DNA of 62,151 nucleotides from a virus (lineage: Duplodnaviria; Caudoviricetes), in the IMG/VR virus record IMGVR_UViG_3300004369_000015, positions 1 to 62,151 of that record; one strand, written 5' to 3'. Shown piece by piece: positions 231 through 40,665 of this stretch. A model generated the notes under the pieces. The model was not told the origin of the DNA, searched no databases, and saw nothing but the letters and a program-made list of their open reading frames with translations. Every line of letters begins with the position of its first letter. Position 1 is the first letter of the stretch. The position numbers were made by a program, and so were the translations under genes.

Positions 231-259
231 AGGGAGTGTCCTCAAAGACACTCCCTTTT
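231..259. terminator. Hairpin built on the 16-bp palindrome; probable terminator between the convergent arms
   Basis: AGGGAGTGTC-CTCAAA-GACACTCCCT followed by a T-run. Confidence 0.75.
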
Positions 260-265
260 CCTTTA

Positions 266-3200
266 TTATTTTTTCTTCTTCAGAAGTTTGGGGTCGATAG
301 CCATACTCTCTACCTCTCCTTTCTTACTCTCCTTTTCAGGTTCAGGTGACATACCACTTGCGGGTCTATAAGATTTAGATATACCAAGTATGTCGTAGAT
401 TGCTGCCTCTTGAAACTCATCGTCTCCGAATCCAAGGTTGTACAACCCAATGAATGGGTCTAACTGTGCTCCCATTGCAGCCTCAAGTATTGGTCGTGTC
501 GTACCCCACAATACCCCATCTTTCTCTACCTGTTTCTTTACCTTGTATCCTACCGATGAGAATGGGTTCACTATAGAAGAGACAAACTTCTTTTTCTTTT
601 TATACTCATCCCCGCTAATACCCGCTATAACTCTACCGCCAAGGTCGTACTCTTCAGCAACTACACCAAGCATTGGCAACTGATATAGTAGGTTCATACC
701 AATCATTGCTTCAGCAATTTTACCCATAGCATCCTCCCTGTCGTCATCATCTCCTAATAGTTTTCCTATGTTAGAAGTAGCAACGAACAGTGCGTTAGCG
801 ATAGCAAGGTTTAGATAGAACTCTCTGATATCTTTTGAGCGAGGAACCTTTCCTTCTGAAATATCCCTACCCATATTGGTAGCAGATGACATCACTTTGT
901 TTATCTGTAGGAACACTGTGCTTCCAAACATTGTGAATGTTCTAACGAGGTAGTTCTTACTCATCTGAAGAGGAGTCTTCTCTGTTCCACGTCTTGACTG
1001 CTGAGTAGCATTGTAGTTATTGAATGCTTCTGCTGCCTCCTGTGGATTCATTCCGTTCTTGATGTTCCTGTTGTAGTTAATCATATACCCCATAACACCG
1101 AGCACGTCTCCGATAACCGTGGGCGCAGCACCCGCCTGTTGAAGTGCACGTCTTGCACGTGCCACTTTAGTATGGCTCTTACTCAGTGGCTTAAATGCTT
1201 TACCTCCTGATTCCAATCCATACACGTCACCCTCAATACCCTGCCTGATACGCATACGAAGTGTTGGTGACATCTCCATCGCCTTATTGATAGCACCGTC
1301 TTTGCCAATCAAATCCTTAGCCATTGACCCATACGTTGCAGCCATATCAACCATAAACATAACAGGGTCGATTGCTTTCTTCACAACGTTAGGAACTTTA
1401 GAGTCCTTAGGGAAGTAACTATAATCAGCATATGCGTTAACAAATGATGTCGCCTGTTTAGCAATCTGAATGACCTTGAATGCCAAAGCAAAACCCGTGA
1501 ACAGTTGTTGGAACTTAGACATCACCTTATTGTCCTGACCCATAGAAGTCCCGGCATTTGGATTGATATCCATATTGACCGTCTGCATCATAGACTTATG
1601 GATACCCAACTCACTAAGTAGTAGGTTCACTGCAGGGATTTTAAAGAATGCATTAATATCCTTCGTGGCCTCAGCATAAGCAACATACTTATCCATTGAC
1701 TGCAGGTGGTTTTCTAACACACCCGAGAAGTCAAAGTCAGATATACTAATATCCTTTTTGGTATCGGTTCTTTCCTTGAATGCAGGTGATACCTCAGCGT
1801 TAAAGATTCCATTGAAGTCGCCCTCCTTTAGGAGTTCGTTGTTATCCTGTGGGCTGATAGTTGATGTTGGGAAATAGTTCTGTACGTAACCAAGGTTCAC
1901 ATCATTGACGCTTGAGTATACAGAGTTTACTTGTTCGTAGTATTCGTTACTCAAGAACTCTACGACCCCATCAACAAATGATACCACCTCAGGCCCGAGG
2001 TTAGTTTTGATTTCCTCTAAGACCTCATCTGAAACCCCTTGGTTGCGCAACTTGTCACGCTGAAAATCATTCTGACTCAGAGCGTATATACGCATCTGTT
2101 GGTCTTTACTTACCTGAGCGTTAAAGGTTGCACCCGTCTTGGTGTTCTTTAATTTAAGAGACATCAATGGGTTACCATCCGAGTAGATGGTATTCATAAC
2201 CTGCTTATACCCCTTGTCAAACCCTGCAGCCCTTGCGATTGAATCTATAGCCTCAATAGTTCTGAATCTATTTTCGTTATAGATATCATTGGCACGGTTC
2301 AGTCTTCTATATACATTGTCCGTAAACGCAGTCTTGCTTCTTGATACTCTATCTACAAGGTTGGTAAGCGTACCAAGGTGTCTCAACATATTCTTAGACG
2401 TAGCGATAACCTGTGAAGCACTGCTATACTTGAAGTTCTTTAACCACTCCTTTATAGCCTGTGGATACTTCCTGTCTCTGAATAGTTTTCTTATTTCGTT
2501 CTTTCTCTCTGAGACTTGGTCGGTGTTTAACAACTCACCCATTTCATCGAACAACTCAGGATTTGTCTCTGCAATCTGAGCAGTCACCTCATCCTCAACC
2601 ATCTTATTACGAGCAGCACGTGCTGCTCTTCTTGACTTCAGGTTGTTTATGGATTCTCTCCTTGTGTCTTTGATGACACTGAACAATTCGTTGGTCTCTT
2701 CCAAAGACATATTCTGAAGGTCGGCAAACGTATCAAACGCCAACGCCAAGTTCATAAGAGCAGTCTCTTTAGATGTCAACTTCTCCCCTCTTGCTTGTTT
2801 AGCGAATGCCTCATCAACCTCAGGTCTTGCAATCTCTTCTGCGATTTTAGCAAGAGCATCTACATCATCCTTGATAATCGCATTGAGTACCTGCTTAGCA
2901 TTAGAGAAGAACGACTGACCCGCAGCGTCCAATCCTGCAGACCTACGTTTACCTGATTGAGTCATAGCAGGTTTTGCTTTCTTGTTTACGAGTTCAGCAA
3001 TCTTCTTTACGACAGACTTCTTCATCGTTGCTCTCTGCTGCTCGATAACATTCATCACATTCTCCATCTGTGCCTCAAGGTCTTCTACAGTTTTTACTTT
3101 ACTTACCGCAGAAATCAATGCATTGATTTTCCCTTGAGTATACTCATTAGATTTAGGGAGGCTTCTTCTGATGAAGTTCTTTAACTGCAACTGAGCATCT

Positions 3201-6200
3201 GCTAAGTTGTTTTCCGCAACCCTTCTCTGTCTTAGGTTATTCCTAATGGCAGCCATCTCTCTGCTGACACTTGTGTTTGCTCTGATACCCAACTGTCTAT
3301 CAAACGCATTCAGTAGTTCCATTTGAACTTGGTCTGTCTGCTCTTGGAATGTTGGGTGAGCCTTCATAAGTTCAACTGCCTTGGCACGGATATCAGAGAA
3401 TGTCTTGGTTCTTGTTGTTCCCCTTCCACCACGTGGGCCTTCGGTAGAGAACCTATCCAACTTCTCTTTTACGTCCTTATACATTTGAAGCGCAGACTGT
3501 ACTCCACCTGCTACACGTTCAAATTCTTTTGGCATTGTAGTAAGCAGGTCAACCTTAACCTCTAATACAGAATCAATATCAGCCTTCTTGTATCCACGAT
3601 TTTTTAGCACCTGTCTTATAGATGCATCTGAGAATCCCTTACTCCGTGCAGCAGATACCACTGCCCCTACAGTAGGGGATGATGATGTCATAAGTTGTAG
3701 TTGGTTATCAAGGTTTCTAACCTCAGCCCCAACAAACAACTCGTTCTCTGACATAAGGTCTACAACAACGCCATTAAGGAACTCATCAAGTGACAGGTTC
3801 TGAATCTGCTCGGCAGACATATTAGAGATACCTGTTAGTTTCTTTACGAACTCAAACAGTTCGTTCAACCAATTCTTGAAATTCTTTTTCTGTGCTGCAG
3901 TGGCGAATGATTCACCCTTATCTCCAATGGCAGTTGCCAATGCTTCCTCAAGGATGTAGTTACGGATGTCCTCTTCGGTAGCACCCGCCTTCTCCATCTC
4001 TTTAATAACCCTTTTATAGTCTGTACTGTTCTCTACATCGGTAACATAGTCAGTACCCTCCACCAAAGCCAACCCCTTCTTATATGTTTCAGGGGACATC
4101 TCTTTGGCAACGTTCATCCAAATGTGTCCGAACTCGTGAACGGGTGTATTAAAGTTTTCTAACCCGGGGTTGAGGTACAACTTACCATCAACCACTGCAC
4201 CGTAAACCTTTTGGCTTTTAGTAACCAACTGACGAGCATTAAGGTTTTCCATTAAAGCATCGAACTCCTCCTGTGTAGCCACAACGTCAACACTTGGGAA
4301 TGCTTTTGTCAGTCTATTTAAAAACTGTTGATACTGAGTAGGTGTAGGAGGAGTAACTTTCTTGGCTACAGATGCACTACGTTGAGCCGTATACATTTCG
4401 TCAGAACGAATCTCTGCTGAACTCTGTTTTCTCATCCCACCCTTGCCATCTTTCTTTTTAAGCAAACCCGCATACTTAGCATTCATTGTGTTCAGTGCTT
4501 TCTTAGATACGTTCCACATAGGAACTGTATCTTCCATCATAGCGACTGCTCTACCTCTAATGTATACAGGATAGTTCTCGTGTGTTCTAATTCCCTCTGC
4601 TTCCTGTTGGTCTCGAGTCATAATGGCCTTGTCAATATCAGCCTCTGACTTAATCAAGTTGCCGTCAGCGTCTGTGATTTCAAGAACCATAGTCATAGCA
4701 CCCATAGGTAGGTCACGTGTAAACTGCTCTGAAACAGAAGACCTTACCGACTGCTGAGTTATACCATTGTCCTGAAGGGTCATCCCTAACTGAGTAGTAG
4801 CCTTGACGTTTGCAGAAGGAAGAACGGCCTGAGTAATCTTTGCTCGTTGGGCTACGTTCAGTGATTTAAAAATATCAATGAATGATTGTAGGTCTGTTGT
4901 TTGACCAATGGCGTTATGGATAATTTTTGTATCCTTGTCTCCGAACTTTCTACCCAAGATGTAATCCTTCATCTGATTGTATACATCCTGTTGGTTGTCA
5001 AGTTTGTTTAGTTTGTCTGTAAACTCTATTGGTGTGGCAATATTAGAGTCTACTGAAGACGGAGCCATATTGTATACCACACTATAGTCTCCCTTTGTAA
5101 AGCCTCTGATAATTCGCTGCGCAGCCTCAACATCCATAGATGCCCAAGCAACCTTACCAAAGGTATCGTCCATTAGTGGGAAGAATGGGCCACCCATTCT
5201 CTTGCTATCTACCTTCAGTTGGTCAGCCATAACATAGTTAACGACCTTACCAACTAAGTCTTTTACTGACATCTTTGGAACCTTGTTTGCCAACTCAGTA
5301 TTCTCTGTTACTGTGATTGGAATGGTTTCCATAGTAGGCTCTGATACAACCTCAGTCTCCTCCACAATATCGGGCTGAACTTCCTCCATCAACTTACGTG
5401 ATGACTCAGCGAGTTTTTGCTTACGTGCTGATGTTTCAGAGTCTGTATTTAGTTGGAACATCTCAGGGTTTGGTGATTCTCTATTAGCCTCACCGAGCAT
5501 ATTCTCAAGGTCTTGTACCTCGTCATCTAAGAACTGCTGCTCATCGGGTGTCCTTGAAGACACTTCACCCAATCCCTCTATGTCAAGGACTATACCCCCT
5601 TCTTCTTCCGTCCCTTGCTCAGGCGTGACGGTAGTCGTTTCGGTAGTGATTGTGGATTCGGTGTCTCCTTGTCCCACTTCTCGCAGTTCCACCGGCTGCG
5701 GTTGTCTTGTGCTTGTGCGTAACACGCCCGTCTCTGTGCTTGGCTCTTGAATGGCATCTTCTTCTTGTTCTGTTGGTAATGTGCCAACGGGTGCTTGTCT
5801 CTTTGGTGCTTTCTTTAGGCTTTGAATTCCTACTAACTCAATGTTGACACGCTCACCCTCAGGCAATAGTTGTTTTGTTTCCGATATCTTGGCAATCTCT
5901 TCATTGATTGCAGCAATTTTACTTTTGAATACCTCTCTTCTATTCTGAGTAGAGGTCAATTCTTCTCTTGCGTTTAACAGTTCTACTAAGCGAGACTCCA
6001 CATCGGTGTTCTCATTTCTGCTAAGTAGCGATGGACTAACGCCCATAAGGTCTCTCGCCTCACGTCTAAGTCCTACGTTCTTTTGGATGCGTTGGTTTTC
6101 CTCAGGAGTAATCTTCCCAAGTCTTTCCATATTGTTTGCCCAAGAACTAATCTTCTCGTCTGATGCTATCTCGTTTACGATACCATCCGCAGTAGAGAAC

Positions 6201-8596
6201 TCTGCTGCAAGTTTCTCGTAGTTTACGTTTCTAATATCACGCATCATATTAACTGCAGCGTTTGGAGCGTTGTTACCCAATCCACCAATTGCCTCAGCAA
6301 ATATTTCTTTCGCATCAATCTCCTGACCCGCAACTACCTGCGCCATATATTCACCAAATGCTTCAGCAGCAGGGTCAAACACAACACGTTCTCCAACCGT
6401 AGCAGCAGCCTTTGCAGTTTTTGATGCAATGCTTCCTACCTTAAATACTCTACCTGCAAGTCCACCTGACACATAGTCTACGACTGCGATAGGGATACCA
6501 CGCTTCAACCCAATCTCTTTACCCTCGGCCCACACCTGCTCATCCTGCAGGGCAGCAGCCAAACTCAACGGGTCATCGGGGTTGTATCCTTGGTTGTCTA
6601 CCGCATCTAATACTGCGTTGGTGTATTCCAATGCTAAAGACGTGGCAGCAAAACCTGTTCTCATACCATAACTCAATCCTGCTAATGCTCCACCGGGAAC
6701 GGTTACCTCAGCGAAGGGGCCACCCGCTAACCCCGCCACCGCACCTGCTCCTGCTCCCGTAGCAGCCGAACCTGAGATTAACTTATATCCATATGGAAGC
6801 ATTTGGCTAAGCGACTCAGCAACAAAGGCAGTTGACAATTCGAATGGGTCATCAAGGAATACATCAAACGCCTCAGAGAATCCTCTTGCTGATGCGTATC
6901 TATATTGCGCTCTACCCTGCTCGTCTGTACGAGCCTCTTGCATATACTGTATAATCTTTAATGCAACCTCTTGAACCTCGGCATCATCACCAACATCTTT
7001 TAGACCAAGTGCCAATGCTAAGATTTGTTCAGCCCCCTTACCTCTCGCCAATCCTGAAGACCAACTCTGAGAAACTGCATCCCAATTTTCTATGAATTCA
7101 CCACGCAGGTTCTTGTCAAACTTCTCAGTGAAGAATGTATTTGCCATCTCGTAGTTGGATGCAGCGTATTGCTTCATAGCATCCAAGTCCCTTTTGTTTT
7201 GTAAGTAAAGACTAACAAGACTTTTCTGCTCAGTAGTTGTGGGGACGTATTGGCTTAGTTCTTCAAGGGTAATCCCCAACTTCTCATTAACATCTTTTGC
7301 TAAAATTTCTTCTGCTTTTTTGGCTGCTGAGTTAGCCTGTACTGCTTGTGCTGATTTCTGCTGAAACTCCTTGTCCAAAAACAAATCGAAGTCTTCACGT
7401 GCAGTAGCGATATCATCATCCGATATCTTAGAGTATAACTCGTTGTACTCCTCTTCCCTTCTTGCCAATATATCATCGGAGTCATTTCTTCTTCTTCCGT
7501 TGACATACAGGTGGGCGTATTTCTTTTGGTCTTTTTCAGATAGGTCTTTCAGATATAGCATAGACCTGTTGTTCAAGAAGTCTATCTCATCTCTTGTTTC
7601 AGCAAATGCATCTATATCCCTCTTAGCCTGTGCATAGTCTAAGCCACGGTCTTTATAGAATGCGAAACCAACTGCATCGATGTTGTTTATATTCTTCCAA
7701 CTACCCTCTGCAAATGCATTAGCCTTATCGGGGCTATCAAACTCAAATATCTCACCACGTAGAAACGCTTCGTTGTACGCATCCATACCTGACAACTCCA
7801 TCCAATCTTGAGGGTCGCTTGTGTAGTTTGCTCCTTTAGGGAACAGGGTTGGGAATACAACATTCTTCCCGTCAATGATTGCCGATGTTAGTTTAACCGT
7901 TGATACAGAACCGTCAGGGTTCATTACGGGTTTATCTCTTAGCCCTCTCACCTGAAGAGCATACTCTGCCTCGCTTACCTCTTGTGGATTAGCAGTTTTT
8001 AGTGGTGCTTGTTTCTTGCCTCGCTTCTTTTCTTCGGCTTGAACTGCTGCCAATGCAGCAGCATCCTCATTAATATTTTGGCTTGTTGTACGTGCATCAG
8101 CAAAACTTTGACGTAAGGCTTGGTCTACCATCCCCTGCTCGGGATACATACCAAGGCTATTCATAGGGTTTCTATACCCTAACTCACGTGTGTCTTGACC
8201 TATTACCTGTCTGTGGCTGCCATCAGGACTCCACAGTATCTCCCCCGGCTTTGGAGTATAGAACTCAAACTCAGGCTGCTCAGTAGTTGATTGCTCCGAA
8301 GAACCATCTGCCGATGGTAATTCCGTACCATCTTTTTTTTTTACAACAGGCTCTTGCTGAACAGGCTCTTGCTGAACAGGCTCTTGCTGAGTAGCATTAG
8401 CATCACCAAAAAATTCGGGGAACTTTGGATTTATAATACTGTAGTCATAGTTATATTGTTCGGCAGTTGTGACATAGTCTTTCAACAACTGAACGTCATA
8501 TCCTGACAACTCAGGGAACTTGCTCATTACTACTCCCCAATTATAGTTGTGGGCCTGAGCAGTTGCAATTAGGTCTTTTAAAATCTGTTCGTCCAT
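266..8596 (-). CDS. Giant (2776 aa) internal virion/ejection polyvalent protein with zincin metallopeptidase domain
   Basis: HEFGH motif (nt 4124-4138) with downstream EEALA; hydrophobic G/A-rich segments; last gene of the structural operon. Confidence 0.7.
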   Translation of the reverse strand: MDEQILKDLIATAQAHNYNWGVVMSKFPELSGYDVQLLKDYVTTAEQYNYDYSIINPKFPEFFGDANATQQEPVQQEPVQQEPVVKKKDGTELPSADGSSEQSTTEQPEFEFYTPKPGEILWSPDGSHRQVIGQDTRELGYRNPMNSLGMYPEQGMVDQALRQSFADARTTSQNINEDAAALAAVQAEEKKRGKKQAPLKTANPQEVSEAEYALQVRGLRDKPVMNPDGSVSTVKLTSAIIDGKNVVFPTLFPKGANYTSDPQDWMELSGMDAYNEAFLRGEIFEFDSPDKANAFAEGSWKNINNIDAVGFAFYKDRGLDYAQAKRDIDAFAETRDEIDFLNNRSMLYLKDLSEKDQKKYAHLYVNGRRRNDSDDILARREEEYNELYSKISDDDIATAREDFDLFLDKEFQQKSAQAVQANSAAKKAEEILAKDVNEKLGITLEELSQYVPTTTEQKSLVSLYLQNKRDLDAMKQYAASNYEMANTFFTEKFDKNLRGEFIENWDAVSQSWSSGLARGKGAEQILALALGLKDVGDDAEVQEVALKIIQYMQEARTDEQGRAQYRYASARGFSEAFDVFLDDPFELSTAFVAESLSQMLPYGYKLISGSAATGAGAGAVAGLAGGPFAEVTVPGGALAGLSYGMRTGFAATSLALEYTNAVLDAVDNQGYNPDDPLSLAAALQDEQVWAEGKEIGLKRGIPIAVVDYVSGGLAGRVFKVGSIASKTAKAAATVGERVVFDPAAEAFGEYMAQVVAGQEIDAKEIFAEAIGGLGNNAPNAAVNMMRDIRNVNYEKLAAEFSTADGIVNEIASDEKISSWANNMERLGKITPEENQRIQKNVGLRREARDLMGVSPSLLSRNENTDVESRLVELLNAREELTSTQNRREVFKSKIAAINEEIAKISETKQLLPEGERVNIELVGIQSLKKAPKRQAPVGTLPTEQEEDAIQEPSTETGVLRTSTRQPQPVELREVGQGDTESTITTETTTVTPEQGTEEEGGIVLDIEGLGEVSSRTPDEQQFLDDEVQDLENMLGEANRESPNPEMFQLNTDSETSARKQKLAESSRKLMEEVQPDIVEETEVVSEPTMETIPITVTENTELANKVPKMSVKDLVGKVVNYVMADQLKVDSKRMGGPFFPLMDDTFGKVAWASMDVEAAQRIIRGFTKGDYSVVYNMAPSSVDSNIATPIEFTDKLNKLDNQQDVYNQMKDYILGRKFGDKDTKIIHNAIGQTTDLQSFIDIFKSLNVAQRAKITQAVLPSANVKATTQLGMTLQDNGITQQSVRSSVSEQFTRDLPMGAMTMVLEITDADGNLIKSEADIDKAIMTRDQQEAEGIRTHENYPVYIRGRAVAMMEDTVPMWNVSKKALNTMNAKYAGLLKKKDGKGGMRKQSSAEIRSDEMYTAQRSASVAKKVTPPTPTQYQQFLNRLTKAFPSVDVVATQEEFDALMENLNARQLVTKSQKVYGAVVDGKLYLNPGLENFNTPVHEFGHIWMNVAKEMSPETYKKGLALVEGTDYVTDVENSTDYKRVIKEMEKAGATEEDIRNYILEEALATAIGDKGESFATAAQKKNFKNWLNELFEFVKKLTGISNMSAEQIQNLSLDEFLNGVVVDLMSENELFVGAEVRNLDNQLQLMTSSSPTVGAVVSAARSKGFSDASIRQVLKNRGYKKADIDSVLEVKVDLLTTMPKEFERVAGGVQSALQMYKDVKEKLDRFSTEGPRGGRGTTRTKTFSDIRAKAVELMKAHPTFQEQTDQVQMELLNAFDRQLGIRANTSVSREMAAIRNNLRQRRVAENNLADAQLQLKNFIRRSLPKSNEYTQGKINALISAVSKVKTVEDLEAQMENVMNVIEQQRATMKKSVVKKIAELVNKKAKPAMTQSGKRRSAGLDAAGQSFFSNAKQVLNAIIKDDVDALAKIAEEIARPEVDEAFAKQARGEKLTSKETALMNLALAFDTFADLQNMSLEETNELFSVIKDTRRESINNLKSRRAARAARNKMVEDEVTAQIAETNPELFDEMGELLNTDQVSERKNEIRKLFRDRKYPQAIKEWLKNFKYSSASQVIATSKNMLRHLGTLTNLVDRVSRSKTAFTDNVYRRLNRANDIYNENRFRTIEAIDSIARAAGFDKGYKQVMNTIYSDGNPLMSLKLKNTKTGATFNAQVSKDQQMRIYALSQNDFQRDKLRNQGVSDEVLEEIKTNLGPEVVSFVDGVVEFLSNEYYEQVNSVYSSVNDVNLGYVQNYFPTSTISPQDNNELLKEGDFNGIFNAEVSPAFKERTDTKKDISISDFDFSGVLENHLQSMDKYVAYAEATKDINAFFKIPAVNLLLSELGIHKSMMQTVNMDINPNAGTSMGQDNKVMSKFQQLFTGFALAFKVIQIAKQATSFVNAYADYSYFPKDSKVPNVVKKAIDPVMFMVDMAATYGSMAKDLIGKDGAINKAMEMSPTLRMRIRQGIEGDVYGLESGGKAFKPLSKSHTKVARARRALQQAGAAPTVIGDVLGVMGYMINYNRNIKNGMNPQEAAEAFNNYNATQQSRRGTEKTPLQMSKNYLVRTFTMFGSTVFLQINKVMSSATNMGRDISEGKVPRSKDIREFYLNLAIANALFVATSNIGKLLGDDDDREDAMGKIAEAMIGMNLLYQLPMLGVVAEEYDLGGRVIAGISGDEYKKKKKFVSSIVNPFSSVGYKVKKQVEKDGVLWGTTRPILEAAMGAQLDPFIGLYNLGFGDDEFQEAAIYDILGISKSYRPASGMSPEPEKESKKGEVESMAIDPKLLKKKK
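2664..2679. repeat. 16-bp palindrome GTGTC-TTTGAT-GACAC (intragenic)
   Basis: Read directly; one spacer base deviates from consensus. Confidence 0.8.
5548..5563. repeat. 16-bp palindrome GTGTC-CTTGAA-GACAC (intragenic)
   Basis: Read directly. Confidence 0.9.
5590..5757 (-). CDS. Overprinted small basic protein (55 aa, MPFKSQAQRRACYA...WDKETP) in an alternative frame of the giant gene
   Basis: ATG with A-rich leader; resembles the MPFKSxAQRR small phage proteins I recall; lies in an acidic linker of the host frame. Confidence 0.65.
   Translation of the reverse strand: MPFKSQAQRRACYAQAQDNRSRWNCEKWDKETPNPQSLPKRLPSRLSKGRKKKGV
8346..8390. repeat. 3 x 15-bp tandem repeat encoding QQEPV
   Basis: ACAGGCTCTTGCTGA three times. 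Confidence 0.9.
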
Positions 8597-8604: not shown

Positions 8605-10500
8605 TTATCGTGAAGTGCCACCCGGCCCTCCGGCATCACCCTTTGTAATGTTTGTTTTTGTTCTACCCGCAGTTAGTTTTGGCTTGTCTGCGTGAGTGTC
8701 AAGCAATTTTTTTAGTGTAGAAACATATGATTGGAATGGAGTATCATCATCCACATTGAATACATATTCATTACCTCCAATTACAATCTTAACTTCATCT
8801 GTACCAAAAGCACCTTGCGTATCTATCGAATCAGGCTTAATACCATAGTTGTTCAATAGGTTCTGTAGATTCTTTTCTGTTTGGTCTTCGTTGTCTTTGA
8901 CAAACAAGTTTGTAGACAACGTTCTGTCTTCTCGCAAAATTCTTGAGAACGCTTCGTTTGCAGTTTCTTCTTTCTTAACCTCTCCAACTGAACTTGCGGT
9001 AGATGCAGCGTTGAACTCTTTATCTTGAAGGCCGAGGTCGTTCCACTTCTTAGACATATCTCTTGGCAGGTCTTCGCCAACAAAGAATATACCTGCTGCT
9101 CCAACACTCCAATCTGACTGTGCCTTTATATTCCCTCCATCATCTTTAAATGGTGCATTTTCAGTCCTTCCATCTGCGTACTTGACAGTTACACCATTAG
9201 CATCACGCTTCAATGATACAATCTGATTTGCAGGTTGGTATCCCGATGTAGCCCTTCTAAGCCAATCTGATGCCTCAGCCACCTCAGAGTCGTTACCATA
9301 CCACAACTTAGCAACAAGCCCAAGTTTGTTTTTATCCTCCTTTTCCTTGTCACCTCTCGCAACCTGCCACTGTGCAGGTGGGTTAGGATTACGGTATTCA
9401 TTGAATGACTGCTTGTCTTGAGTAACGTCCATCTTGTTACGGATAGACATCTTCATAAACGCACGTACCTGCTTCTCTTGTTCAGCAGCATTCGGGTTTA
9501 CCTTAGGGTCGAATACAGGAAGGTTGTCATCGCCTAACAGAATTAAGTTTGGGTCTGATTTTGCTTTCTCTACATCATAAGTAAATGTATACTCAGCACC
9601 TTCAGCAGTTGTGTTTACAAAGTTTGTAAGAACAGAACTCATATTGTATGGATTAGACATCTGTCCTGTAATCCAATCGTCCTCTGCTCTGAAGTAGTAG
9701 TTCATTGTCTCGGCCTCTTGTTCTGAAAGGCCAAGTGCCATAAGTTCTTCCTTGGTATGCAACTTTGCAAATGGGTTCATCCAAGAATCAATCTCTGCGT
9801 TCTTTGTTCTTGTTCCGTCTACCACCTTGGCAGCCGTCTTCCAAACGCCTGTCTCTGATGCCCACTTAGCAGTCGCTCCCTCTAAGTCATAGTTGTCGTA
9901 GTATCCTGCAATCTGCCCACGAAGAGCACCAACATCCACCAAGTCATTTGGGTTTGAGGATAATACCATCTCCCCCGTCTCAGGGTCTTTAACTCTATAC
10001 GCAGCATTGACCTTCCCGTTCTCGGGATTGATGACCAACCCTGCCTTTGAGAAGTTTGCAAATCCCTCAACGTTTGACATCATCCAAGCCTCAAGGTCTT
10101 GAGCCTTACCGTCCTTTACACGCTGCATCTTTTCAGCGTATACGTCTTGGTATTCCTGCATTAAACTGAATGCTGCATCAGTACCGTCAGTTAGGTTCTG
10201 ACGCATAATTGCGTAATCCTTTGGACTAAGAGAACCACTCTTCAGTAGTCTCTCCTGCATAAGCATCTGCTCTTGGGCATCTGCGCTAAATTGAATAGCA
10301 GCCTCGTTGAGCGTTTTGTTTTCGCCACGAACCCCCTCACTTAAAACCCTCTGATAGTTTCGTGTTGCCTCATCAATGGCAGCCTTCTTCTCTTCACGAA
10401 CACGTGACTCTTCTTTGAGGACTGCATTTATATTAGACCCTACCTCGGCCCAATTGACCTGTAGCGATGGTTCTCTTTCCTGATATCCGTAACCTGCCAT
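8605..10500 (-). CDS. Putative internal virion protein (631 aa)
   Basis: Long helical ORF in the ejection-protein block. Confidence 0.55.
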   Translation of the reverse strand: MAGYGYQEREPSLQVNWAEVGSNINAVLKEESRVREEKKAAIDEATRNYQRVLSEGVRGENKTLNEAAIQFSADAQEQMLMQERLLKSGSLSPKDYAIMRQNLTDGTDAAFSLMQEYQDVYAEKMQRVKDGKAQDLEAWMMSNVEGFANFSKAGLVINPENGKVNAAYRVKDPETGEMVLSSNPNDLVDVGALRGQIAGYYDNYDLEGATAKWASETGVWKTAAKVVDGTRTKNAEIDSWMNPFAKLHTKEELMALGLSEQEAETMNYYFRAEDDWITGQMSNPYNMSSVLTNFVNTTAEGAEYTFTYDVEKAKSDPNLILLGDDNLPVFDPKVNPNAAEQEKQVRAFMKMSIRNKMDVTQDKQSFNEYRNPNPPAQWQVARGDKEKEDKNKLGLVAKLWYGNDSEVAEASDWLRRATSGYQPANQIVSLKRDANGVTVKYADGRTENAPFKDDGGNIKAQSDWSVGAAGIFFVGEDLPRDMSKKWNDLGLQDKEFNAASTASSVGEVKKEETANEAFSRILREDRTLSTNLFVKDNEDQTEKNLQNLLNNYGIKPDSIDTQGAFGTDEVKIVIGGNEYVFNVDDDTPFQSYVSTLKKLLDTHADKPKLTAGRTKTNITKGDAGGPGGTSR

Positions 10501-12682: not shown

Positions 12683-12698
12683 GTGTCTTTAAAGACAC
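12683..12698. repeat. Perfect 16-bp palindrome GTGTC-TTTAAA-GACAC (intergenic)
   Basis: Read directly; 1 bp past the stop codon at 12700. Confidence 0.9.
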
Positions 12699-21160: not shown

Positions 21161-21194
21161 AAAAAAGGGAGAGTGTCTTCAAAGACACTCCCCC
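21161..21194 (-). terminator. Capsid-gene terminator containing the 16-bp palindrome (21173-21188)
   Basis: GGGAGAGTGTC-TTCAAA-GACACTCCCC with a T-run on the minus strand. Confidence 0.75.
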
Positions 21195-22688: not shown

Positions 22689-23798
22689 TTATTTTCTACT
22701 TTTTATTCTGAGACCACGACCTGAGTCGTCATTTACAGAACGAATCTTCATTCCTCCCGTAGAAGTAACCTCGGGTGCTTTGCGTACATCCATATCAATG
22801 TTCTTGGTTTTACGCATTACATCATCAGTCGCCTCTGCTTTGCCCTGCTCGTAGAAAAACTTGGCAAACTTTTCGGGATTCATTGCGATGGCTAAAGACC
22901 TGTGGTAACCTACTGCATCCTTCATAAGACCATCATCATCCAAGAACTTTTTAATAAAGTTCTGAGGTGTTGACTGAATCTTCTTCAGTTCAGTAGAATC
23001 GCCCGGAGAAAAAGTAACCTTCTTGTCTTCGCCTAACGTGAACTCAAAACCTTTGAACTCACTACTAAAGACCTCGTCAGTTTTTTGCATAAACCAATCA
23101 GTTTTACGCTTTGCTTCTTCTTCGTAGGTTGTAGCCTGTTGCATATATTCTCTATAGTCATCGAGTGCTTTCTGTTCATCGGCAGAGATAGAACTCCCTC
23201 TCGACTCGAGGGGAACTCTGTACTTCTCTTTCTCTGATTCGAAATACTCTTTGGCTTTAGCGATAGCCTTTTTATAGCGCAACTTTGCTTTCTTGACATC
23301 TGACTCATCGTCCAACTCCTCGTCCCACGAGTAGTCTTCCATCATCATATTGATGTCGTCATCATCAAGACCTTTCTCAGTTGCTCTCAAATACTCACGC
23401 AACAATGCTTCGGGCTTCTCTTCGTCAAAGTTTTTATTCAACTTAACAAAGTCATCAAACCCACGGCCTGTTTCTTTTTTGTATTTGAGGTAAGCAGACA
23501 CATCTTCGGGAAGTGGTTCTGACTCTTGACGAGCCTGAAACAAATCATCCACGGATGTAATCTCCTTGTTATACTTGTTTTTAATAAATGAAAGAACGTC
23601 TTCCTCGCTCATCGGTTGAGGTTGTGAATCCTCTTCGACTTGCTCGTCAACCTTTGGGTTTACTTCTTGTTTAGTTTCGTCAACCTTTGGGTTTACTTCT
23701 TCGTTGTTGTGTTGTGCTTCGTGCTTGTCAAGAAGTTCCTGCTCAACTTGTTGAACACTCTTCTCCTCAACTCCTACTTCTCTAACTTTGATTTCCAT
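22689..23798 (-). CDS. Capsid scaffolding protein
   Basis: Very acidic and helical; between portal and capsid. Confidence 0.7.
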   Translation of the reverse strand: MEIKVREVGVEEKSVQQVEQELLDKHEAQHNNEEVNPKVDETKQEVNPKVDEQVEEDSQPQPMSEEDVLSFIKNKYNKEITSVDDLFQARQESEPLPEDVSAYLKYKKETGRGFDDFVKLNKNFDEEKPEALLREYLRATEKGLDDDDINMMMEDYSWDEELDDESDVKKAKLRYKKAIAKAKEYFESEKEKYRVPLESRGSSISADEQKALDDYREYMQQATTYEEEAKRKTDWFMQKTDEVFSSEFKGFEFTLGEDKKVTFSPGDSTELKKIQSTPQNFIKKFLDDDGLMKDAVGYHRSLAIAMNPEKFAKFFYEQGKAEATDDVMRKTKNIDMDVRKAPEVTSTGGMKIRSVNDDSGRGLRIKSRK

Positions 23799-23854: not shown

Positions 23855-26290
23855 TTAACGTGGGGAGAACTCGGCCAAGTCGAACCCATCCAAACTATCT
23901 TCGTTAGATTCGAAGGTCATTGGTGGCAAGTTGTTCTTGCGTTGGTTAATCAACTTAGATTGCTCGGTGTTTTGTTGGCTTATCCTTTTCTCCTTTGCAA
24001 CTTCACGTGCGCTTTCTCTTTTTGATAGGGCCTGACCATTCATCCTTGCAATCTCCATAGTGTAGTTGAACTCTTCAGCCATCAACTGCGATTTCAATTG
24101 CGCTTCACCCTTCATCTTCTCTAACTCTAACTGAATCTCAGCCTGTTTGATTTGCATCTTAGCCTGAGTTTCTGCCTGAAGTTTCTGCATAGCAGCCTGA
24201 GCAGCCATCTGCTGAGATTGCATCTGAGCCTGTTGTTGCTGCATCTGCATCTCCATCTGAACCTTCTGCTCTCTTTCCTGCTTGGCTTTACGCTTGACCT
24301 TTAGTAACTGATTAGCAAGTTTGATATTCTTAATCTCTCTGATATCAATCGCATCCTCAAGGTTAATGTCTTGCTTAGACAATGCCATCTGAATGTTGGC
24401 TTCGAGTTGAGCCTTCTGCTCTTCATCAGGTGATACCTCAATGAAGATACCGAAGTCATAGATATATAAGTCAGATATCTCGTGAAGAATGCTGACGTTA
24501 TACTTTCCAATCTTGTTTGCGAAGTCATCTTTAAAGTCTGCGTACTCGAGAATGTCAGCAACTCTATAAGACAATCCTTCTGATATGGTCTTGAACATAT
24601 GCAAACTTCCGTCAAGGATATGTCTCGTTGCGGTGTTTGAATTAAGGGCAGCCAACTTCTGAATACCAACTAATGAGTTAGGGTCAGGGGTACTACCATC
24701 ACGTGCCTCATTAAGCCCCGTTACTGAACGAATCATATCAAGGTAGTGGTTGTAGTTACCAATAAGCATCTGCGTCTTCGCTGCACCTGAGTTAGAGTTT
24801 AACTGAGTAATAGGAACTCGTGCGTTGTTGAACTCACCATCCTGAGTATAAGACCTACCAATAACAGAACCTGTTTGGAAGTATAAACGCAATGCGTCCT
24901 CAGGATTATATGCGGAACCCGTACCAAGGTCAACCTCGTTTAATCCATCTGCATCGATGAATACACCATCAGGCACAACACGTGAAATAACCTGCTGCAA
25001 CTTTAGGTGTGTAATTTGAATGAGGTCAGCGAAAGGAATCATACGTCTAACCAAAGACTCGATTACTCCCTTGTACATTCTTGGTGCTACCGCTACGTAG
25101 TTAGGGATAGCGTGTTGAGATGCCGACTTTGGTCTAACCATATTCTTAGCCATCTCCCACTTGAGTACATAGTTTGTACCCATTACCATAATACCATCGT
25201 ACCATACATCAATGGTCTTCTCGACTTTTTCGAAGTGGCCCTCCTCCATCATTTCTGTTGGTGGGTTGAACTCGTCATCCTTCTCAATCATCTTCATACC
25301 ACCACCTTCTGCCATCTTCTTCTTGTATACAAACTTCTTTGTACTCTTGTAGTTGTAGTATAGCAGGGTTACAGTATCACGATAGAATATATCGTTATCA
25401 TAGAACTGAGCAACGTTGAAGTAGTCATACCAACTCTGAGACATCTTGGAGATTTCTTCCATCTGCTCGTTAGTAATAGTTGGGTCAATCTTCTTTAACT
25501 CAGTAATGGGCACGGTCTTAACCTCACCCCAATAAAAACAATCCTTGAAGTAGGGGTCTTCTGTATAACTATATACAACGTTCGCAGGGTCTACATAAGA
25601 AACTTTGACACCCGCACCTTTTAAGAATTCGTGCTTCCCTACTGCTATCCCCAATACAGTAAGGTCATAATCATACCGCTTACGCAGTTCAACATACTTG
25701 TTCTCTTCAAGGATTGTATTAATTGCTTCCTCCTCTGCAATCTCAATTGCAGGTTTATAGTTGAGTTGCATATACAACGTCAACTCCTCATCGTTCTGAG
25801 GGAGGTCGTTAGGCTCCATAATAAATGGATTAGCCCCTGTCTTTTGCTGAACTTTTTGTAGAATTGGCTTAGCGACCATTTGGCCCTCAACCATATCTTG
25901 ATACTTGCTTCTCTTTGCTTGAGACATTGCGTCTTGCGCATATGCCTTTACCTTGAAAAGTCTGTCAGACATTCCGTTAACAACGATATCCACAAACTTT
26001 GGAAGGATGGGTACAGGAGTCCAATCTAAGTTAAGATATGACAAGTCCCCATCAATGGCTAATTCGTTTTTGTATTTGCCAATAGGCTGCTCACCTCGAG
26101 CATATAGTCTCAGTCTATGGAAGTTTCTCCATTGGTCGTAGAACCGACACTGATTTCCGTCTTTTTTAAACCACTCATACTGAATGGCTTGGCCAACCTG
26201 AAGACCAAATTCTTCAGACGCTTTCTCTTTATCTGAAACAAATTGACTTGGGAAACCTGTCGATGTTATGCTTACCTTAACATCTTTCAT
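23855..26290 (-). CDS. Portal protein
   Basis: 811 aa directly after terminase; Q/M-rich C-terminal coiled coil. Confidence 0.8.
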   Translation of the reverse strand: MKDVKVSITSTGFPSQFVSDKEKASEEFGLQVGQAIQYEWFKKDGNQCRFYDQWRNFHRLRLYARGEQPIGKYKNELAIDGDLSYLNLDWTPVPILPKFVDIVVNGMSDRLFKVKAYAQDAMSQAKRSKYQDMVEGQMVAKPILQKVQQKTGANPFIMEPNDLPQNDEELTLYMQLNYKPAIEIAEEEAINTILEENKYVELRKRYDYDLTVLGIAVGKHEFLKGAGVKVSYVDPANVVYSYTEDPYFKDCFYWGEVKTVPITELKKIDPTITNEQMEEISKMSQSWYDYFNVAQFYDNDIFYRDTVTLLYYNYKSTKKFVYKKKMAEGGGMKMIEKDDEFNPPTEMMEEGHFEKVEKTIDVWYDGIMVMGTNYVLKWEMAKNMVRPKSASQHAIPNYVAVAPRMYKGVIESLVRRMIPFADLIQITHLKLQQVISRVVPDGVFIDADGLNEVDLGTGSAYNPEDALRLYFQTGSVIGRSYTQDGEFNNARVPITQLNSNSGAAKTQMLIGNYNHYLDMIRSVTGLNEARDGSTPDPNSLVGIQKLAALNSNTATRHILDGSLHMFKTISEGLSYRVADILEYADFKDDFANKIGKYNVSILHEISDLYIYDFGIFIEVSPDEEQKAQLEANIQMALSKQDINLEDAIDIREIKNIKLANQLLKVKRKAKQEREQKVQMEMQMQQQQAQMQSQQMAAQAAMQKLQAETQAKMQIKQAEIQLELEKMKGEAQLKSQLMAEEFNYTMEIARMNGQALSKRESAREVAKEKRISQQNTEQSKLINQRKNNLPPMTFESNEDSLDGFDLAEFSPR

Positions 26291-28539
26291 CTAATAATTT
26301 CGCTAATTGTTCCTCTGTTATTATACCTTGCAAAGTTAATGTTTATTTTTGACTGTTTTTTTTCAGGCTGATAGAGGTGCTTCTGACAAGCCATAATCGC
26401 CAAGCCCGAACTAATCGATGCGTCAAACTTAGTTCTGTTGGTAATATCAAACTTTGCCCAATCCTCTAATGTTCTCGTAAAAGGCATTGACCCCATCTCA
26501 TCTGCGTCTCGATAGGTGGCATCTAAATCCATACCAACGTACTTCTCAATATAAGATTCAATTGCTGAGGCGTGTGCTTGTTTCACATCCTCACTTGAGT
26601 TCGGAATACCTCCGAGTTCACGCTCAGTTTTTGACAACTTAGTGTAATGTTTGTCAGGTCTATTCATACAGAATCCCCTGTAACCTCTATTCTTAAAATG
26701 GTATAACAATCTCGGCTTGTTGTTCTCAATCAAGATTGGCATACCGTAGAATACACAGGCCATAAGAACCTCTTCGTAGAATATCTCAGCAGTCTGTGGT
26801 CTCGCAATATACTCTAAGAAAAACTCGTTACTTGGAGCGTCATCCATATTGAACATAGTCAGTCCGTGAAGTGCTCCATTAGAACCACCACCCCCGACTA
26901 CACCCGAGATGTCATAGGAGTCACAACCGAACGCACCAATGTGGTCATTGGCGGGGTACTTGAATCCACTCTTCAGTAACACCCTGTTCTGCAGTGCGGG
27001 GCCGGGAGTCCACGATACTAAGAACCTCCCTCTCTTGTCGGGACTAAAGATTACTTTAGTATCCTTGATGCCATCTTTCCAATAGAATGAACCACGAGTT
27101 AAGTGATGCTCTTGTATAAGTGTGTCGTTGTAATCTATCTGCTGATATATCTTAGTTAGGTTGAAAATAGATGCCTTGCTCTCATCACGGAATGCGTGTG
27201 ACTCAGTTCGTGGGAACTGACGATAGTATTCGTTCAGTGCATCTGCATCGCTCTTTAGTGACGCAACTTCAGCCTCCCAATAATCAATAGCCCCCTGATG
27301 GATATATCCACCATCAACACCCAATATGGGCTTATCGGTGGTTTTTCGCATCACGGGGTGACCATATCTATCAATGAATCCCTCCATATTCCATTCCATC
27401 GGAACGAATAGCGCATACATACCACTCTTAGTCTGACCGTTCGCATTGCGCTTAGTGACATCTGAATCATAGTATAGACCCTTGAAGTTATCTCCACCTT
27501 TATCAAGTGCGTTCGATGTAGAACCCATCATACACTTGCCAATAATCTTGCTACCCAAACGTAGACAAGTCTTTGTTACACGCCAATTGTTTAGGATGTT
27601 GTTAGGCTTAATCCATTTTCCGCTTTCATCGTGTACGAGTAGTAGTAATTTTTCACCATCATAAGAGTTATCGTCAGTATTCTTCCAATCGATTGTGGTA
27701 TCCAAGCCTTCAATCTGCTCTTCATCCACATCGAACATATTCTTTTTTGTAATCTTGGATGCAGGTACACGATAGGCCAACTCTGTCTTTGGCCTATCCA
27801 TACCATCCATAATGGGCCTGAAGAAGAACGGGAGTCTACTATTGATTGGCACAACCTTATCAGTAAACATCTTCTTAGCGTCACTACCTGTCTTAGACAG
27901 GATACCAACCCTCGCATCCTTTGCAAGAGTTGCGGTATGCACACACTCCGAAGAAGACATAAAAGAAAATCCTGAACGTCTAATCTTCAGGTACACCATT
28001 CCAAACGAACGGGTGTCTGCTTTACAGGCTTCCCAAAAAAGAAACAGGATTCTATTTGCCTCACGGTAGTCAGGGTATCCAACGTCAATACTTGTCCACT
28101 GAAGGTACATATAATGCGACCCCGTGATGTACGTGGGCACTCCATTATTCATAAACCAACAACCATCTTCACGGTAGTCAAACTCCTTCTCAATGTAATC
28201 TACCCACCTGTTCTTAAACTCGGTAGGCTTCTCGTTCCATTGGAAGATTGACTGAATGCGTGACAACTCAGTAGGGAGTTCACGTCTTTCCCAATATTGT
28301 TCTTCTGCTTTTTTGTGTCTTTGAAGACACTCTTTAGGTGCGATTGGTAATCCAATCTTTAGATTTTGAATCTCAATAACATCACCTAATGTTCCATCCT
28401 TAGATATTACTACAAGGTCATAGTCAGGGTTATACCCATACTTCCAACTCTTTGCTTTGTTCTTGTTGGTAAGTACAGATTTCTGTACGTAATCAGGTAC
28501 AACTCTGTGTAGTTCTTTATTTTGACCTTCTTTCAGCAA
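26287..28539 (-). CDS. terL: Terminase large subunit
   Basis: KIRRSGFS Walker A, LLVHDESGK Walker B, GSTSN motif III, GCDSYD and IENN nuclease motifs; start codon uncertain. Confidence 0.9.
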   Translation of the reverse strand: MLKEGQNKELHRVVPDYVQKSVLTNKNKAKSWKYGYNPDYDLVVISKDGTLGDVIEIQNLKIGLPIAPKECLQRHKKAEEQYWERRELPTELSRIQSIFQWNEKPTEFKNRWVDYIEKEFDYREDGCWFMNNGVPTYITGSHYMYLQWTSIDVGYPDYREANRILFLFWEACKADTRSFGMVYLKIRRSGFSFMSSSECVHTATLAKDARVGILSKTGSDAKKMFTDKVVPINSRLPFFFRPIMDGMDRPKTELAYRVPASKITKKNMFDVDEEQIEGLDTTIDWKNTDDNSYDGEKLLLLVHDESGKWIKPNNILNNWRVTKTCLRLGSKIIGKCMMGSTSNALDKGGDNFKGLYYDSDVTKRNANGQTKSGMYALFVPMEWNMEGFIDRYGHPVMRKTTDKPILGVDGGYIHQGAIDYWEAEVASLKSDADALNEYYRQFPRTESHAFRDESKASIFNLTKIYQQIDYNDTLIQEHHLTRGSFYWKDGIKDTKVIFSPDKRGRFLVSWTPGPALQNRVLLKSGFKYPANDHIGAFGCDSYDISGVVGGGGSNGALHGLTMFNMDDAPSNEFFLEYIARPQTAEIFYEEVLMACVFYGMPILIENNKPRLLYHFKNRGYRGFCMNRPDKHYTKLSKTERELGGIPNSSEDVKQAHASAIESYIEKYVGMDLDATYRDADEMGSMPFTRTLEDWAKFDITNRTKFDASISSGLAIMACQKHLYQPEKKQSKININFARYNNRGTISEIIR
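28315..28330. repeat. 16-bp palindrome GTGTC-TTTGAA-GACAC (inside terL)
   Basis: Read directly. Confidence 0.9.
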
Positions 28540-40653: not shown

Positions 40654-40665
40654 TTGTTTTTTACT

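What the first reader, a model, noticed from the sequence alone, without database searches (positions are those of the whole stretch)
5590..5757. Small basic MPFKS-type gene overprinted inside the 2776-aa giant protein
Seen: a shifted frame on the same strand reads MPFKSQAQRRACYAQAQDNRSRWNCEKWDKETPNPQSLPKRLPSRLSKGRKKKGV, with a purine-rich leader. The main frame here is an acidic low-complexity linker (EEDAIQEPSTETGV). The ORF ends 26 bp before a palindrome copy. From recall, not a search: MPFKSxAQRR...W..ETP...LP matches free-standing small phage proteins. Inference: a true dual-coding region that annotation pipelines would miss, perhaps a DNA-binding core protein like those at 40.4-42 kb.
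Basis: partly seen in the sequence, partly recalled or inferred. Interest (0 to 1): 0.8.

Follow-up and report, generated by a model that had tools for sequence, protein, structure and literature searches.

The report
Small basic gene nested in giant gene
A 55-residue, strongly basic protein gene sits in a shifted reading frame inside a phage's giant virion-protein gene, and comparison with many related phages shows it is a real, conserved and unannotated gene, not a chance open frame.

Summary
Window 5590-5757 (minus strand) reads MPFKSQAQRR...KKKGV, one base out of frame (+1) with the 2776-aa giant ORF (266-8596).

ORF length alone is not beyond chance. The comparative evidence is strong:
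- The same ORF is intact in the +1 frame in relatives found only through the host protein. Of 12 new contigs, 11 carry it embedded. In the twelfth it stands free, 4 nt after the giant gene's stop.
- The host's third codon position, normally the most variable (0.62), is the least variable inside the overlap (0.27).
- Changes silent in the peptide but not in the host outnumber the reverse, 474 to 182.
- A profile of the peptide finds 4283 protein clusters. Most listed hits are free-standing small proteins or N-terminal domains.
- Close relatives carry the same cassette inside the scaffold-like gene next to the portal gene instead.
- Each of 10 near-complete genomes checked, and the window, has exactly one full-length copy.
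- The start codon has the A-rich leader without a Shine-Dalgarno (ribosome-binding) motif that is typical of this genome.

Function is not shown. I infer a small virion-associated basic protein. No Pfam family, solved structure or paper matches. I rate it a new variant of nested (overprinted) genes.

The parts
5590..5757 (-). Nested gene for the 55-aa MPFKS protein (ATG 5757-5755, TAG stop 5592-5590). By my count it has 15 K+R against 4 D+E, a net charge of about +11. Two short helices are predicted, followed by a disordered basic tail.
   Evidence: Translation. Homologues intact in the same frame. Profile match E = 1.2e-22, the only copy in the genome. AF2 model with pLDDT 72.6, helices 6-17 and 25-31.
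5758..5782 (-). A-rich leader without a Shine-Dalgarno motif; the probable translation initiation region of the nested gene.
   Evidence: There are 12 A in positions -20..-1. Only 0.7% of 953 internal ATGs in the window's genes reach that count. The 39 long ORFs taken as genes average 10.3 A, and 5 of 39 have an SD-like 4-mer. Across 72 embedded relatives, A is at 70-91% at -14..-11, -6 and -5, and 3 of 72 have an SD-like 4-mer. The stretch is unpaired in the minimum-energy fold.
266..8596 (-). Host gene: a 2776-aa giant virion protein at the end of the structural module. By my arithmetic, residues about 947-1003 are read from the same bases as the nested gene.
   Evidence: ORF and translation. 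It is the last ORF of the run that includes the terminase, portal and MCP-like genes. Homologous giant proteins.
5548..5563 (.). A copy of the genome-wide near-palindrome GTGTC-N6-GACAC, 26 nt downstream of the nested gene's stop. It forms part of a hairpin.
   Evidence: about 20 sites, many just after ORF ends. Hairpin of -22.1 kcal/mol, z = -1.86, with no T run after it.

Best explanation
Window 5590-5757 (minus strand) is a genuine gene for a small basic protein. It is translated from its own ATG and lies in the +1 frame inside the linker of the giant virion-protein gene.

The small gene is the constrained frame and probably the older one. The giant protein simply reads through it in another frame, producing an acidic stretch (DAIQEPST...VGQGD). 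That stretch shows no detectable purifying selection on its residues, apart from staying free of stops.

The host is very likely a member of the Flavobacteriia, so ribosomes would start at the A-rich, unstructured leader without a Shine-Dalgarno motif.

The same cassette occurs once per genome in this phage lineage. It lies inside the giant gene, inside the scaffold-like gene next to the portal gene, or free-standing beside the giant gene.

Shown here: the ORF exists, it is conserved, the selection pattern follows its frame, free-standing and N-terminally fused relatives exist, there is one copy per genome, and the start context fits.

Inferred (about 35%): the product is a small protein inside or attached to the virion. 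Its two-helix head would dock on a head, portal or internal-protein component, and its lysine/arginine tail would bind nucleic acid. It would be packaged and perhaps ejected with the DNA.
For: 1. Unbiased sampling. Loci fetched only through the host protein keep the ORF.
- L083 and L084, found via the N-terminal domain, both have it.
- 19 loci were found via the C-terminal domain. The 17 that hold the upstream host sequence all have an intact MPF[KRV]S ORF in the +1 frame.
- Twelve of those contigs were new. Eleven carry it embedded. The twelfth, L100, has a 61-aa free-standing copy 4 nt after the giant ORF's stop, and its giant protein lacks the DA[IV]Q shadow motif.
- Of 5 records chosen through the terminase, 4 have one copy, and each is embedded in the +1 frame.

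2. Codon-position test on 16 host-selected loci. In the host-only region, pairwise differences at host positions 1/2/3 are 0.45/0.34/0.62. In the overlap they are 0.42/0.31/0.27. Amino-acid identity over the overlap is 0.62 for the peptide and 0.48 for the host frame.

3. Substitution classes (53 nearest-neighbour pairs).
- 474 changes are silent in the peptide and non-silent in the host, against 182 of the reverse kind. The expected share is 0.447; binomial p = 5e-46.
- The host-selected subset gives 125 against 53, p = 7e-12.
- Among peptide-changing substitutions, the host-silent share is 182/615 = 0.30 against 0.345 expected (my arithmetic). So there is no sign of selection on host residues.

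4. Family. A profile of 76 peptides finds 4283 clusters at E <= 1e-3 and 427 at E <= 1e-10. Of the 150 listed, 137 match from residue 1 and 82 are 100 aa or shorter (my counts).

5. Free-standing copies have stops in the host-equivalent frame.

6. Relocation. Hosts of about 400 aa are orthologues of window p369, which lies between the portal and MCP-like genes (34-39% identity), in phages whose terminase is 64-67% identical to the window's.

7. Copy number. There is one full copy in each of 10 near-complete genomes and in the window.

8. Start context. Baez et al. 2019 (PMC6847099; passages read) report A at -3, -6, -12 and -13 as positive determinants in Flavobacterium johnsoniae.

9. Close natural variants. 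Of 15 variable places in 5300-6100, none falls in 5590-5757.
Against: - There is no direct evidence of translation. No RNA run holds the stretch, and no proteomic or ribosome-profiling data were available.
- ORF length alone is unremarkable.
- Most loci in the large set were fetched by similarity to the peptide and seeded on MPFKSQAQ. That set is therefore biased towards peptide conservation. The host-selected subsets are smaller (16 loci, 12 pairs).
- Pairs in the substitution counts share ancestry, so the p-values overstate independence.
- The window peptide itself matches no Pfam or PHROG model.
- The gene is absent from more distant Flavobacteriia phages: Cellulophaga phi40:1 and phi18:3 and Tenacibaculum Gundel_1 give 0 of 3. 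It is also absent from one terminase-selected record of about 90% completeness. So it is not universal.
- The functional reading rests only on gene neighbourhood, charge and domain fusions.
Confidence: 0.85

Rival explanations
1. The +1 ORF is a non-coding shadow. What is conserved is the giant protein's own motif (DAIQEPST...GLQEVGQGD), and the alternative frame is open by accident of composition.
For: The host-frame motif is recognisably conserved between distant giant and scaffold-like proteins. Purine-rich acidic linkers tend to leave the +1 frame open. The window's +1 frame has other ATG ORFs of 58-68 aa.
Against: In the overlap the host's third codon position is the least variable, 0.27 against 0.62 elsewhere. 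Peptide-silent changes dominate, 474 against 182. Host-silent changes are not enriched among peptide-changing ones. Free-standing copies exist with the host-equivalent frame closed. L100 has the small gene outside the giant ORF and no host motif inside it. The ATG and the first residues are invariant in all 76 aligned peptides.
Confidence: 0.04
2. The gene is real, but the 45-residue head is mainly a targeting or docking module that loads proteins into the capsid or onto the portal, or else a small regulator that binds late mRNA. It would not be a DNA-condensing core protein.
For: In the profile search the module sits at residue 1 of longer proteins of 100-575 aa with unrelated C-terminal parts: DUF5661 in P0116 and P0118, weak sub-threshold matches to AAA-type P-loop domains in P0011, and glycine-zipper regions. 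L064 matches the first 47 positions of phrog_25121, a 'virion structural protein' model of 263 positions. L062 (299 aa) and L074 (217 aa) carry it N-terminally. The strict invariance of M1-P2-F3-S5-Q8 suggests the N-terminus itself is recognised.
Against: Most listed relatives, and all embedded copies, are stand-alone, with nothing fused that could be delivered. Nothing links the protein to RNA.
Confidence: 0.25
3. The alternative frame is reached by programmed frameshifting. Either the giant protein is truncated with a basic tail, or ribosomes start at the internal ATG and slip -1 back into the host frame to fuse the module to the C-terminal two thirds of the giant protein.
For: Natural in-frame fusions of the module to long C-terminal regions exist elsewhere. 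The tails are lysine-rich, so A runs occur.
Against: Only 10 of 72 embedded ORFs hold an in-phase X XXY YYZ heptamer. The three phases are equally frequent (11, 10, 9), and the window has none. The ORF always begins with ATG at the family's own N-terminus.
Confidence: 0.03
4. The cassette is a selfish, mobile small gene that persists because it can sit inside linkers without breaking them, and it gives the phage little benefit.
For: The same cassette is found in two different host genes within one lineage, and also free-standing. It is always in the +1 frame, with the host frame kept open.
Against: There is exactly one copy in each of 10 near-complete genomes and strong purifying selection on the protein. 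No repeats, integrase or endonuclease were looked for or seen with it.
Confidence: 0.1

Closest known systems
Rz/Rz1 spanin genes of phage lambda (Rz1 nested in the +1 frame of Rz); recalled, not searched here
   Same: A small gene lies wholly inside a larger gene of a dsDNA phage, on the same strand and in the +1 frame, with its own start. In other phages the two genes can be separate or overlapping.
   Different: The MPFKS protein has no signal peptide, lipobox or hydrophobic stretch (read). It sits in the virion module, not the lysis cassette. The same cassette occupies different host genes.
PHROG phrog_1375 (unknown function), phrog_16759 and the N-terminus of phrog_25121 ('virion structural protein')
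   Same: Free-standing relatives L057, L060 and L074 match phrog_1375 (E = 1.5e-5 to 1.5e-4). L064 matches phrog_16759 and positions 1-47 of phrog_25121.
   Different: The window peptide itself matches no PHROG at E <= 1. The link runs only through the profile of 76 peptides. None of these families has a known function.
Pfam DUF3008 (PF11450)
   Same: The ESM Atlas lists a viral 'putative DUF3008' cluster of 53 aa as the nearest cluster with a Pfam family, score 0.88. The tool itself calls a score under 0.9 a lead only.
   Different: None of the 76 family members, and none of 10 further relatives, matches PF11450 by hmmscan, even at E <= 10.
Small internal or ejected head proteins (T7 gp6.7 and gp7.3; SPP1 gp7 and MuF-type portal- and DNA-binding head proteins with variable C-terminal cargo); recalled, functional analogy only
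   Same: A small protein encoded among head, portal and internal-protein genes. The family also occurs as an N-terminal module fused to varied C-terminal domains.
   Different: No similarity to any of them was tested here. The profile found no relative among solved structures at E < 0.2. No experimental link to virions exists.

Membership tests
Nested (overprinted) protein-coding gene pair | One ORF lies wholly inside another gene in a different frame | tested here: met
   5590-5757 lies inside 266-8596, on the same strand, in the +1 frame.
Nested (overprinted) protein-coding gene pair | The alternative frame is kept open and under purifying selection in homologues | tested here: met
   Intact in all 17 host-selected loci that hold the site. 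Codon-position and silent/non-silent tests follow the peptide frame.
Nested (overprinted) protein-coding gene pair | The product of the nested frame is made (translation or protein detected) | not testable with these tools
   No RNA holder was listed. No proteomic or ribosome-profiling data were at hand. Only the start context is favourable.
MPFKS small-protein / N-terminal module family (unnamed; overlaps phrog_1375) | N-terminal MPFKSxAQ, a central W-x-x-E-T/Y-P motif, an LP(K/E)R motif and a basic tail | tested here: met
   Alignment A2: M1, P2, F3, S5 and Q8 are invariant; K4, Q6, A7, R9, L38 and P39 are at 90% or more. The window copy scores E = 1.2e-22 against the profile, which includes it.
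MPFKS small-protein / N-terminal module family (unnamed; overlaps phrog_1375) | Direct match of the window peptide to the curated PHROG model | tested here: not met
   No PHROG at E <= 1. Only the relatives L057, L060 and L074 match phrog_1375.
Pfam DUF3008 (PF11450) | Match to the Pfam model at or near its gathering score | tested here: not met
   No match for the window peptide, for 10 relatives or for any of 76 aligned members at E <= 10.
Rz1-type outer-membrane spanin | Signal peptide with a lipobox cysteine | tested here: not met
   The sequence has no hydrophobic N-terminal stretch. Its cysteines (C12, C25) sit in a polar, basic context.
Programmed -1 frameshift product | A conserved in-phase slippery heptamer X XXY YYZ | tested here: not met
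   10 of 72 embedded ORFs have one; there is no phase preference (11/10/9); the window has none.

The most novel reading that the evidence does not exclude
The MPFKS cassette is a gene adapted to live inside other genes. It is a single-copy, possibly essential small virion protein, and its coding sequence is kept stop-free in the host's reading frame, which lies -1 from its own. It can therefore move between the linkers of different virion genes (giant internal protein, scaffold-like protein) or stand alone without breaking its host gene. The host proteins' acidic 'DAIQEPST...GQGD' segments would then be nothing but its translated shadow. The recurrence of that motif in large proteins of uncultured marine phages would mark hidden copies of the gene across a large lineage of Flavobacteriia phages.
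Probability: 0.3. Interest if true: 0.85.

Novelty: new variant of a known kind. Interest (0 to 1): 0.72.

Why it matters
Nested genes in dsDNA phages are known from only a few cases, and gene callers do not report them. Here one small gene is hidden in the +1 frame of virion genes across a large, environmentally common lineage of Flavobacteriia phages. The family has thousands of uncharacterised free-standing relatives.

Three consequences follow:
- It corrects the annotation of these genomes.
- It explains a recurring 'motif' in their giant proteins as a by-product of the other frame.
- It offers a natural system for asking how a gene comes to be engulfed by, or to move between, other genes.

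A cultured carrier exists: the Flavobacterium elemo phages (copy confirmed in MT497067). The start codon can be removed without changing the host protein: in GAT GCC, T to C keeps Asp, which I read. So the question can be tested directly.

Tried and rejected
- Pfam and PHROG scans of the window peptide found nothing. A Pfam scan of 76 members found nothing meaningful. Choline_sulf_C matched 16 members with best E = 3.7e-4, over a short stretch, and I took it as chance.
- A word-based homologue search found only one protein, P0003. The exhaustive profile search was needed.
- blastn of 4500-7000 against cultured phages gave no match. tblastn with P0004 against cultured phages gave nothing at E <= 1e-3 and only weak 'hypothetical protein' hits at E <= 10.
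- Solved structures: no sequence relative (best E = 0.22, a kringle domain, taken as chance) and no Foldseek match for the model.
- The frameshift-fusion idea was rejected.
- Complex prediction of the peptide with the window's portal protein returned 'no answer' (score 0.00, controls not run). This is neither for nor against binding.
- Sequencing runs: no RNA holder was listed, so nothing can be said on expression.
- Five literature searches and one for the elemo phages found no description of this gene or family. I saw search listings and abstract starts only, except for PMC12919940 (one passage, irrelevant) and PMC6847099 (passages). Supplements were not consulted. Virion proteomics of the elemo phages, if published, was not seen.
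- The idea that free-standing copies always follow the portal gene holds only in part. L057 and L072 follow portal-like ORFs. The ORF upstream of L051 looks ligase- or acetyltransferase-like, and five of the other seven flanking ORFs scanned (L064, L055, L041, L060, L062) match nothing.
Full report
**What is there.**
The window is a complete phage genome: 62,151 bp, direct terminal repeats, estimated 100% complete. On the minus strand an ORF runs from the ATG at 5757 to the TAG at 5592-5590. It reads MPFKSQAQRRACYAQAQDNRSRWNCEKWDKETPNPQSLPKRLPSRLSKGRKKKGV. It lies wholly inside the 2776-aa ORF 266-8596 on the same strand and is shifted by +1. In the main frame the same bases read an acidic stretch...EEDAIQEPSTETGVLRTSTRQPQPVELREVGQGDTES.... 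ORF length by itself proves nothing. The +1 frame of the giant gene has other ATG ORFs of 68 and 58 aa, and the chance of 55 stop-free codons at the mean stop rate is 0.03.

**Genome context.**
The giant gene closes a structural module on the minus strand. The module holds:
- large terminase, 26287-28539;
- portal, 23855-26290;
- a 369-aa acidic protein, 22689-23798, which I call scaffold-like only from its position;
- an MCP-like 482-aa protein;
- further virion structural proteins, including one of 1602 aa.

The portal's cultured relatives all infect Flavobacteriia. They are 68 Flavobacterium, 15 Cellulophaga, 2 Tenacibaculum and 1 Maribacter phage records, plus the uncultured MW202828 at 77% identity.

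**The same ORF in other phages.**
tblastn of the peptide against cultured phages hit 70 records. Of these, 68 are Flavobacterium elemo phages and one is MW202828. All 40 rows that were listed lie under an annotated giant 'structural protein' CDS. In both records that I opened, the match is a complete ORF starting MPFKSK, in the +1 frame of the giant CDS, and it is not annotated.

A scan of IMG/VR found 156 relatives, of which 80 were kept. With the two GenBank loci and the window that makes 83 places, which divide as follows:
- 66 have the ORF wholly inside an ORF of more than 300 aa, and the host frame always lies 2 bases further on, so the peptide is always +1 of its host;
- 5 are cut by contig ends;
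- 12 are free-standing or form the N-terminus of a 217- or 299-aa protein.

This set was fetched by similarity to the peptide and seeded on MPFKSQAQ, so it is biased.

**Unbiased samples.**
I therefore fetched loci through the host protein alone.
- Two loci found with the giant protein's N-terminal domain both carry a 42-aa MPFKS ORF in the +1 frame.
- An alignment of the conserved C-terminal domain (A1) brought 19 loci. All 17 that include the upstream part of the host gene carry an intact ORF in the +1 frame. Their N-termini vary: MPFKSQKQ, MPFRSQAQ, MPFVSEAQ.
- Twelve of those contigs were new. Eleven have the gene embedded.
- In the twelfth, L100, the giant ORF has no such ORF and no DA[IV]Q motif. 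A 61-aa MPFKSKAQRRWMY... gene stands free 4 nt after its stop, and the other frames are closed there.
- Of 5 long records chosen through the terminase, 4 have exactly one copy, each embedded in the +1 frame of a long ORF. One record of about 90% completeness has none.

**Which frame is selected.**
In 16 host-selected loci, the host-only C-terminal domain shows the usual pattern of pairwise differences at codon positions 1/2/3: 0.45/0.34/0.62. In the overlap, the host positions 1/2/3 show 0.42/0.31/0.27. The host's wobble position becomes the least variable because it is the peptide's second position. Amino-acid identity over the overlap is 0.62 in the peptide frame and 0.48 in the host frame. 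The best host domain reaches 0.42.

Single-base differences between nearest neighbours (53 pairs from 72 distinct embedded ORFs) fall into these classes:
- 474 silent in the peptide but not in the host;
- 182 the reverse;
- 433 changing both;
- 13 silent in both.

Mutational opportunity predicts a share of 0.447 for the first class against the second. The observed share is 0.72. The host-selected subset gives 125 against 53. Among changes that alter the peptide, the host-silent share (0.30) is not above expectation (0.345; my arithmetic). The host residues therefore look unconstrained, apart from the need to stay open. Free-standing copies do have stops in that frame. Pairs share ancestry, so the p-values (5e-46 and 7e-12) overstate independence, but the effect is large.

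Close natural variants in metagenomes show 15 variable places in 5300-6100, and none falls within the ORF. One contig covers the whole stretch with 12 differences. By my arithmetic, about 2.5 of those 12 would be expected inside the ORF, which is a weak result. Many unrelated contigs match only 5731-5775, the start codon with the first eight codons and about 18 nt of leader.

**The family.**
A profile of 76 peptides (A2) searched against 1.84 billion representatives found 4283 proteins at E <= 1e-3 and 427 at E <= 1e-10. Of the 150 listed, 137 match from residue 1, 82 are 100 aa or shorter, and lengths range from 45 to 575 aa (my counts). Longer members carry unrelated C-terminal parts: DUF5661 twice above Pfam's cut-off, weak sub-threshold AAA-type matches in one, weak glycine-zipper matches in one, and six of the ten scanned with no Pfam match.

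No Pfam family matches any member. A few free-standing members match PHROGs of unknown function, or the first 47 positions of a 'virion structural protein' PHROG. The ESM Atlas places the peptide next to viral hypothetical proteins of 48-58 aa (scores 0.93-0.94) and gives DUF3008 only as a lead, at 0.88. AlphaFold2 predicts two short helices (6-17 and 25-31) and a disordered basic tail, at moderate confidence (pLDDT 72.6). Nothing similar has been solved.

There are two subfamilies. One has a cysteine pair, as in the window. The other has W/M and A at those two positions.

**The cassette changes host gene.**
In 14 loci the host ORF is only about 400 aa, and the cassette starts about 180 nt after that frame opens. 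These hosts are orthologues of the window's 369-aa protein (34-39% identity from residue about 95). They lie between a portal and an MCP-like gene in phages whose terminase is 64-67% identical to the window's and whose portal is about 50% identical. The window's own 369-aa protein has no cassette.

Each of 10 near-complete genomes that I checked, and the window, has exactly one full-length copy. One of them has the copy in the scaffold-like gene. Those genomes were mostly chosen because they carry the gene, so only the copy number is informative. More distant Flavobacteriia phages lack the gene: Cellulophaga phi40:1 and phi18:3 and Tenacibaculum Gundel_1 have no copy.

**How it would be expressed.**
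The window's genes have A-rich leaders and rarely an SD-like motif (5 of 39). The nested ATG has 12 A in positions -20..-1, a count reached by 0.7% of 953 internal ATGs and by 26% of the 39 gene starts. Across 72 embedded copies, A is at 70-91% at -14..-11, -6 and -5, and 63% at -3. An SD-like 4-mer occurs in 3 of 72. This matches the determinants reported for Flavobacterium johnsoniae: A at -3, -6, -12 and -13 (PMC6847099, passages read). The leader is unpaired in the predicted fold.

A frameshift route is unlikely. In-phase slippery heptamers occur in 10 of 72 ORFs, with no phase preference, and the window has none.

**What it does.**
This part is inferred. The grounds are:
- the gene sits among head, portal and internal-protein genes;
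- the family also occurs as an N-terminal module on varied proteins;
- the protein has a net charge of about +11 and a lysine/arginine tail.

I think a small virion-associated protein that binds nucleic acid, or an internal or portal component, is the most likely role (about 35%). A pure targeting module or a regulator is the next most likely. A complex prediction with the portal gave no verdict.

**Comparison and novelty.**
The closest known arrangement is Rz1 nested in the +1 frame of Rz (recalled). The product here has no lipoprotein features, the host genes are virion genes, and the same cassette occupies different hosts. Five literature searches found no description of it. I rate it a new variant of a known kind.

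Noticed in passing
window 236-251, 2664-2679, 5548-5563, 12683-12698, 21173-21188, 28315-28330, 41195-41210, 43841-43856, 45871-45886, 46805-46820, 47787-47802, 48466-48481, 49353-49368, 49815-49830, 50944-50959, 52407-52422, 54615-54630, 57306-57321, 59085-59100: A 16-nt near-palindrome, GTGTCYTYRARGACAC, occurs at about 20 sites: 34 strand matches at up to 3 mismatches against 0.61 expected, reached by 0 of 100 shuffles. Many copies lie just after ORF ends in intergenic gaps, on both coding strands. It may be a regulatory or transcript-boundary element.
   Followed up: partly
window 40394-42013, minus strand: A run of seven small, very basic ORFs rich in K, R and G (51, 96, 46, 114, 50, 46 and 85 aa), back to back. 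The MPFKS profile does not match them.
   Followed up: no
window 5731-5775: In metagenome contigs of four studies, many otherwise unrelated contigs match only this stretch of about 35-45 nt, which holds the start codon and first eight codons of the nested gene plus about 18 nt of leader. Depth in one run rises from about 2 to 87 there. So the first codons are conserved at the nucleotide level across different phages.
   Followed up: partly
genome behind L025 (handle G002), 8206-8247, about 630 nt upstream of its full copy at 8881-9066: A second, 14-residue match to the N-terminal part of the MPFKS profile (E = 7e-5) with a stop inside. Similarly, the elemo phage giant protein shows a second 'QEDAVQKQ' stretch upstream of its cassette. 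These may be remnants of a duplicated or relocated cassette.
   Followed up: no
window 266-8596 (giant protein); also L001: The giant protein holds a zincin-like HEFGH motif (PVHEFGHIWMN). The MW202828 homologue has LVHEFGHVWQD. Neither Pfam nor PHROGs recognises any domain in the 2776-aa protein.
   Followed up: no
L100 12761-12943: In one giant-protein homologue the small gene is not nested. It follows the giant ORF's stop by 4 nt, and its peptide (…AKEFEKET…) resembles the embedded copies in the related giant genes of L085-L088.
   Followed up: yes
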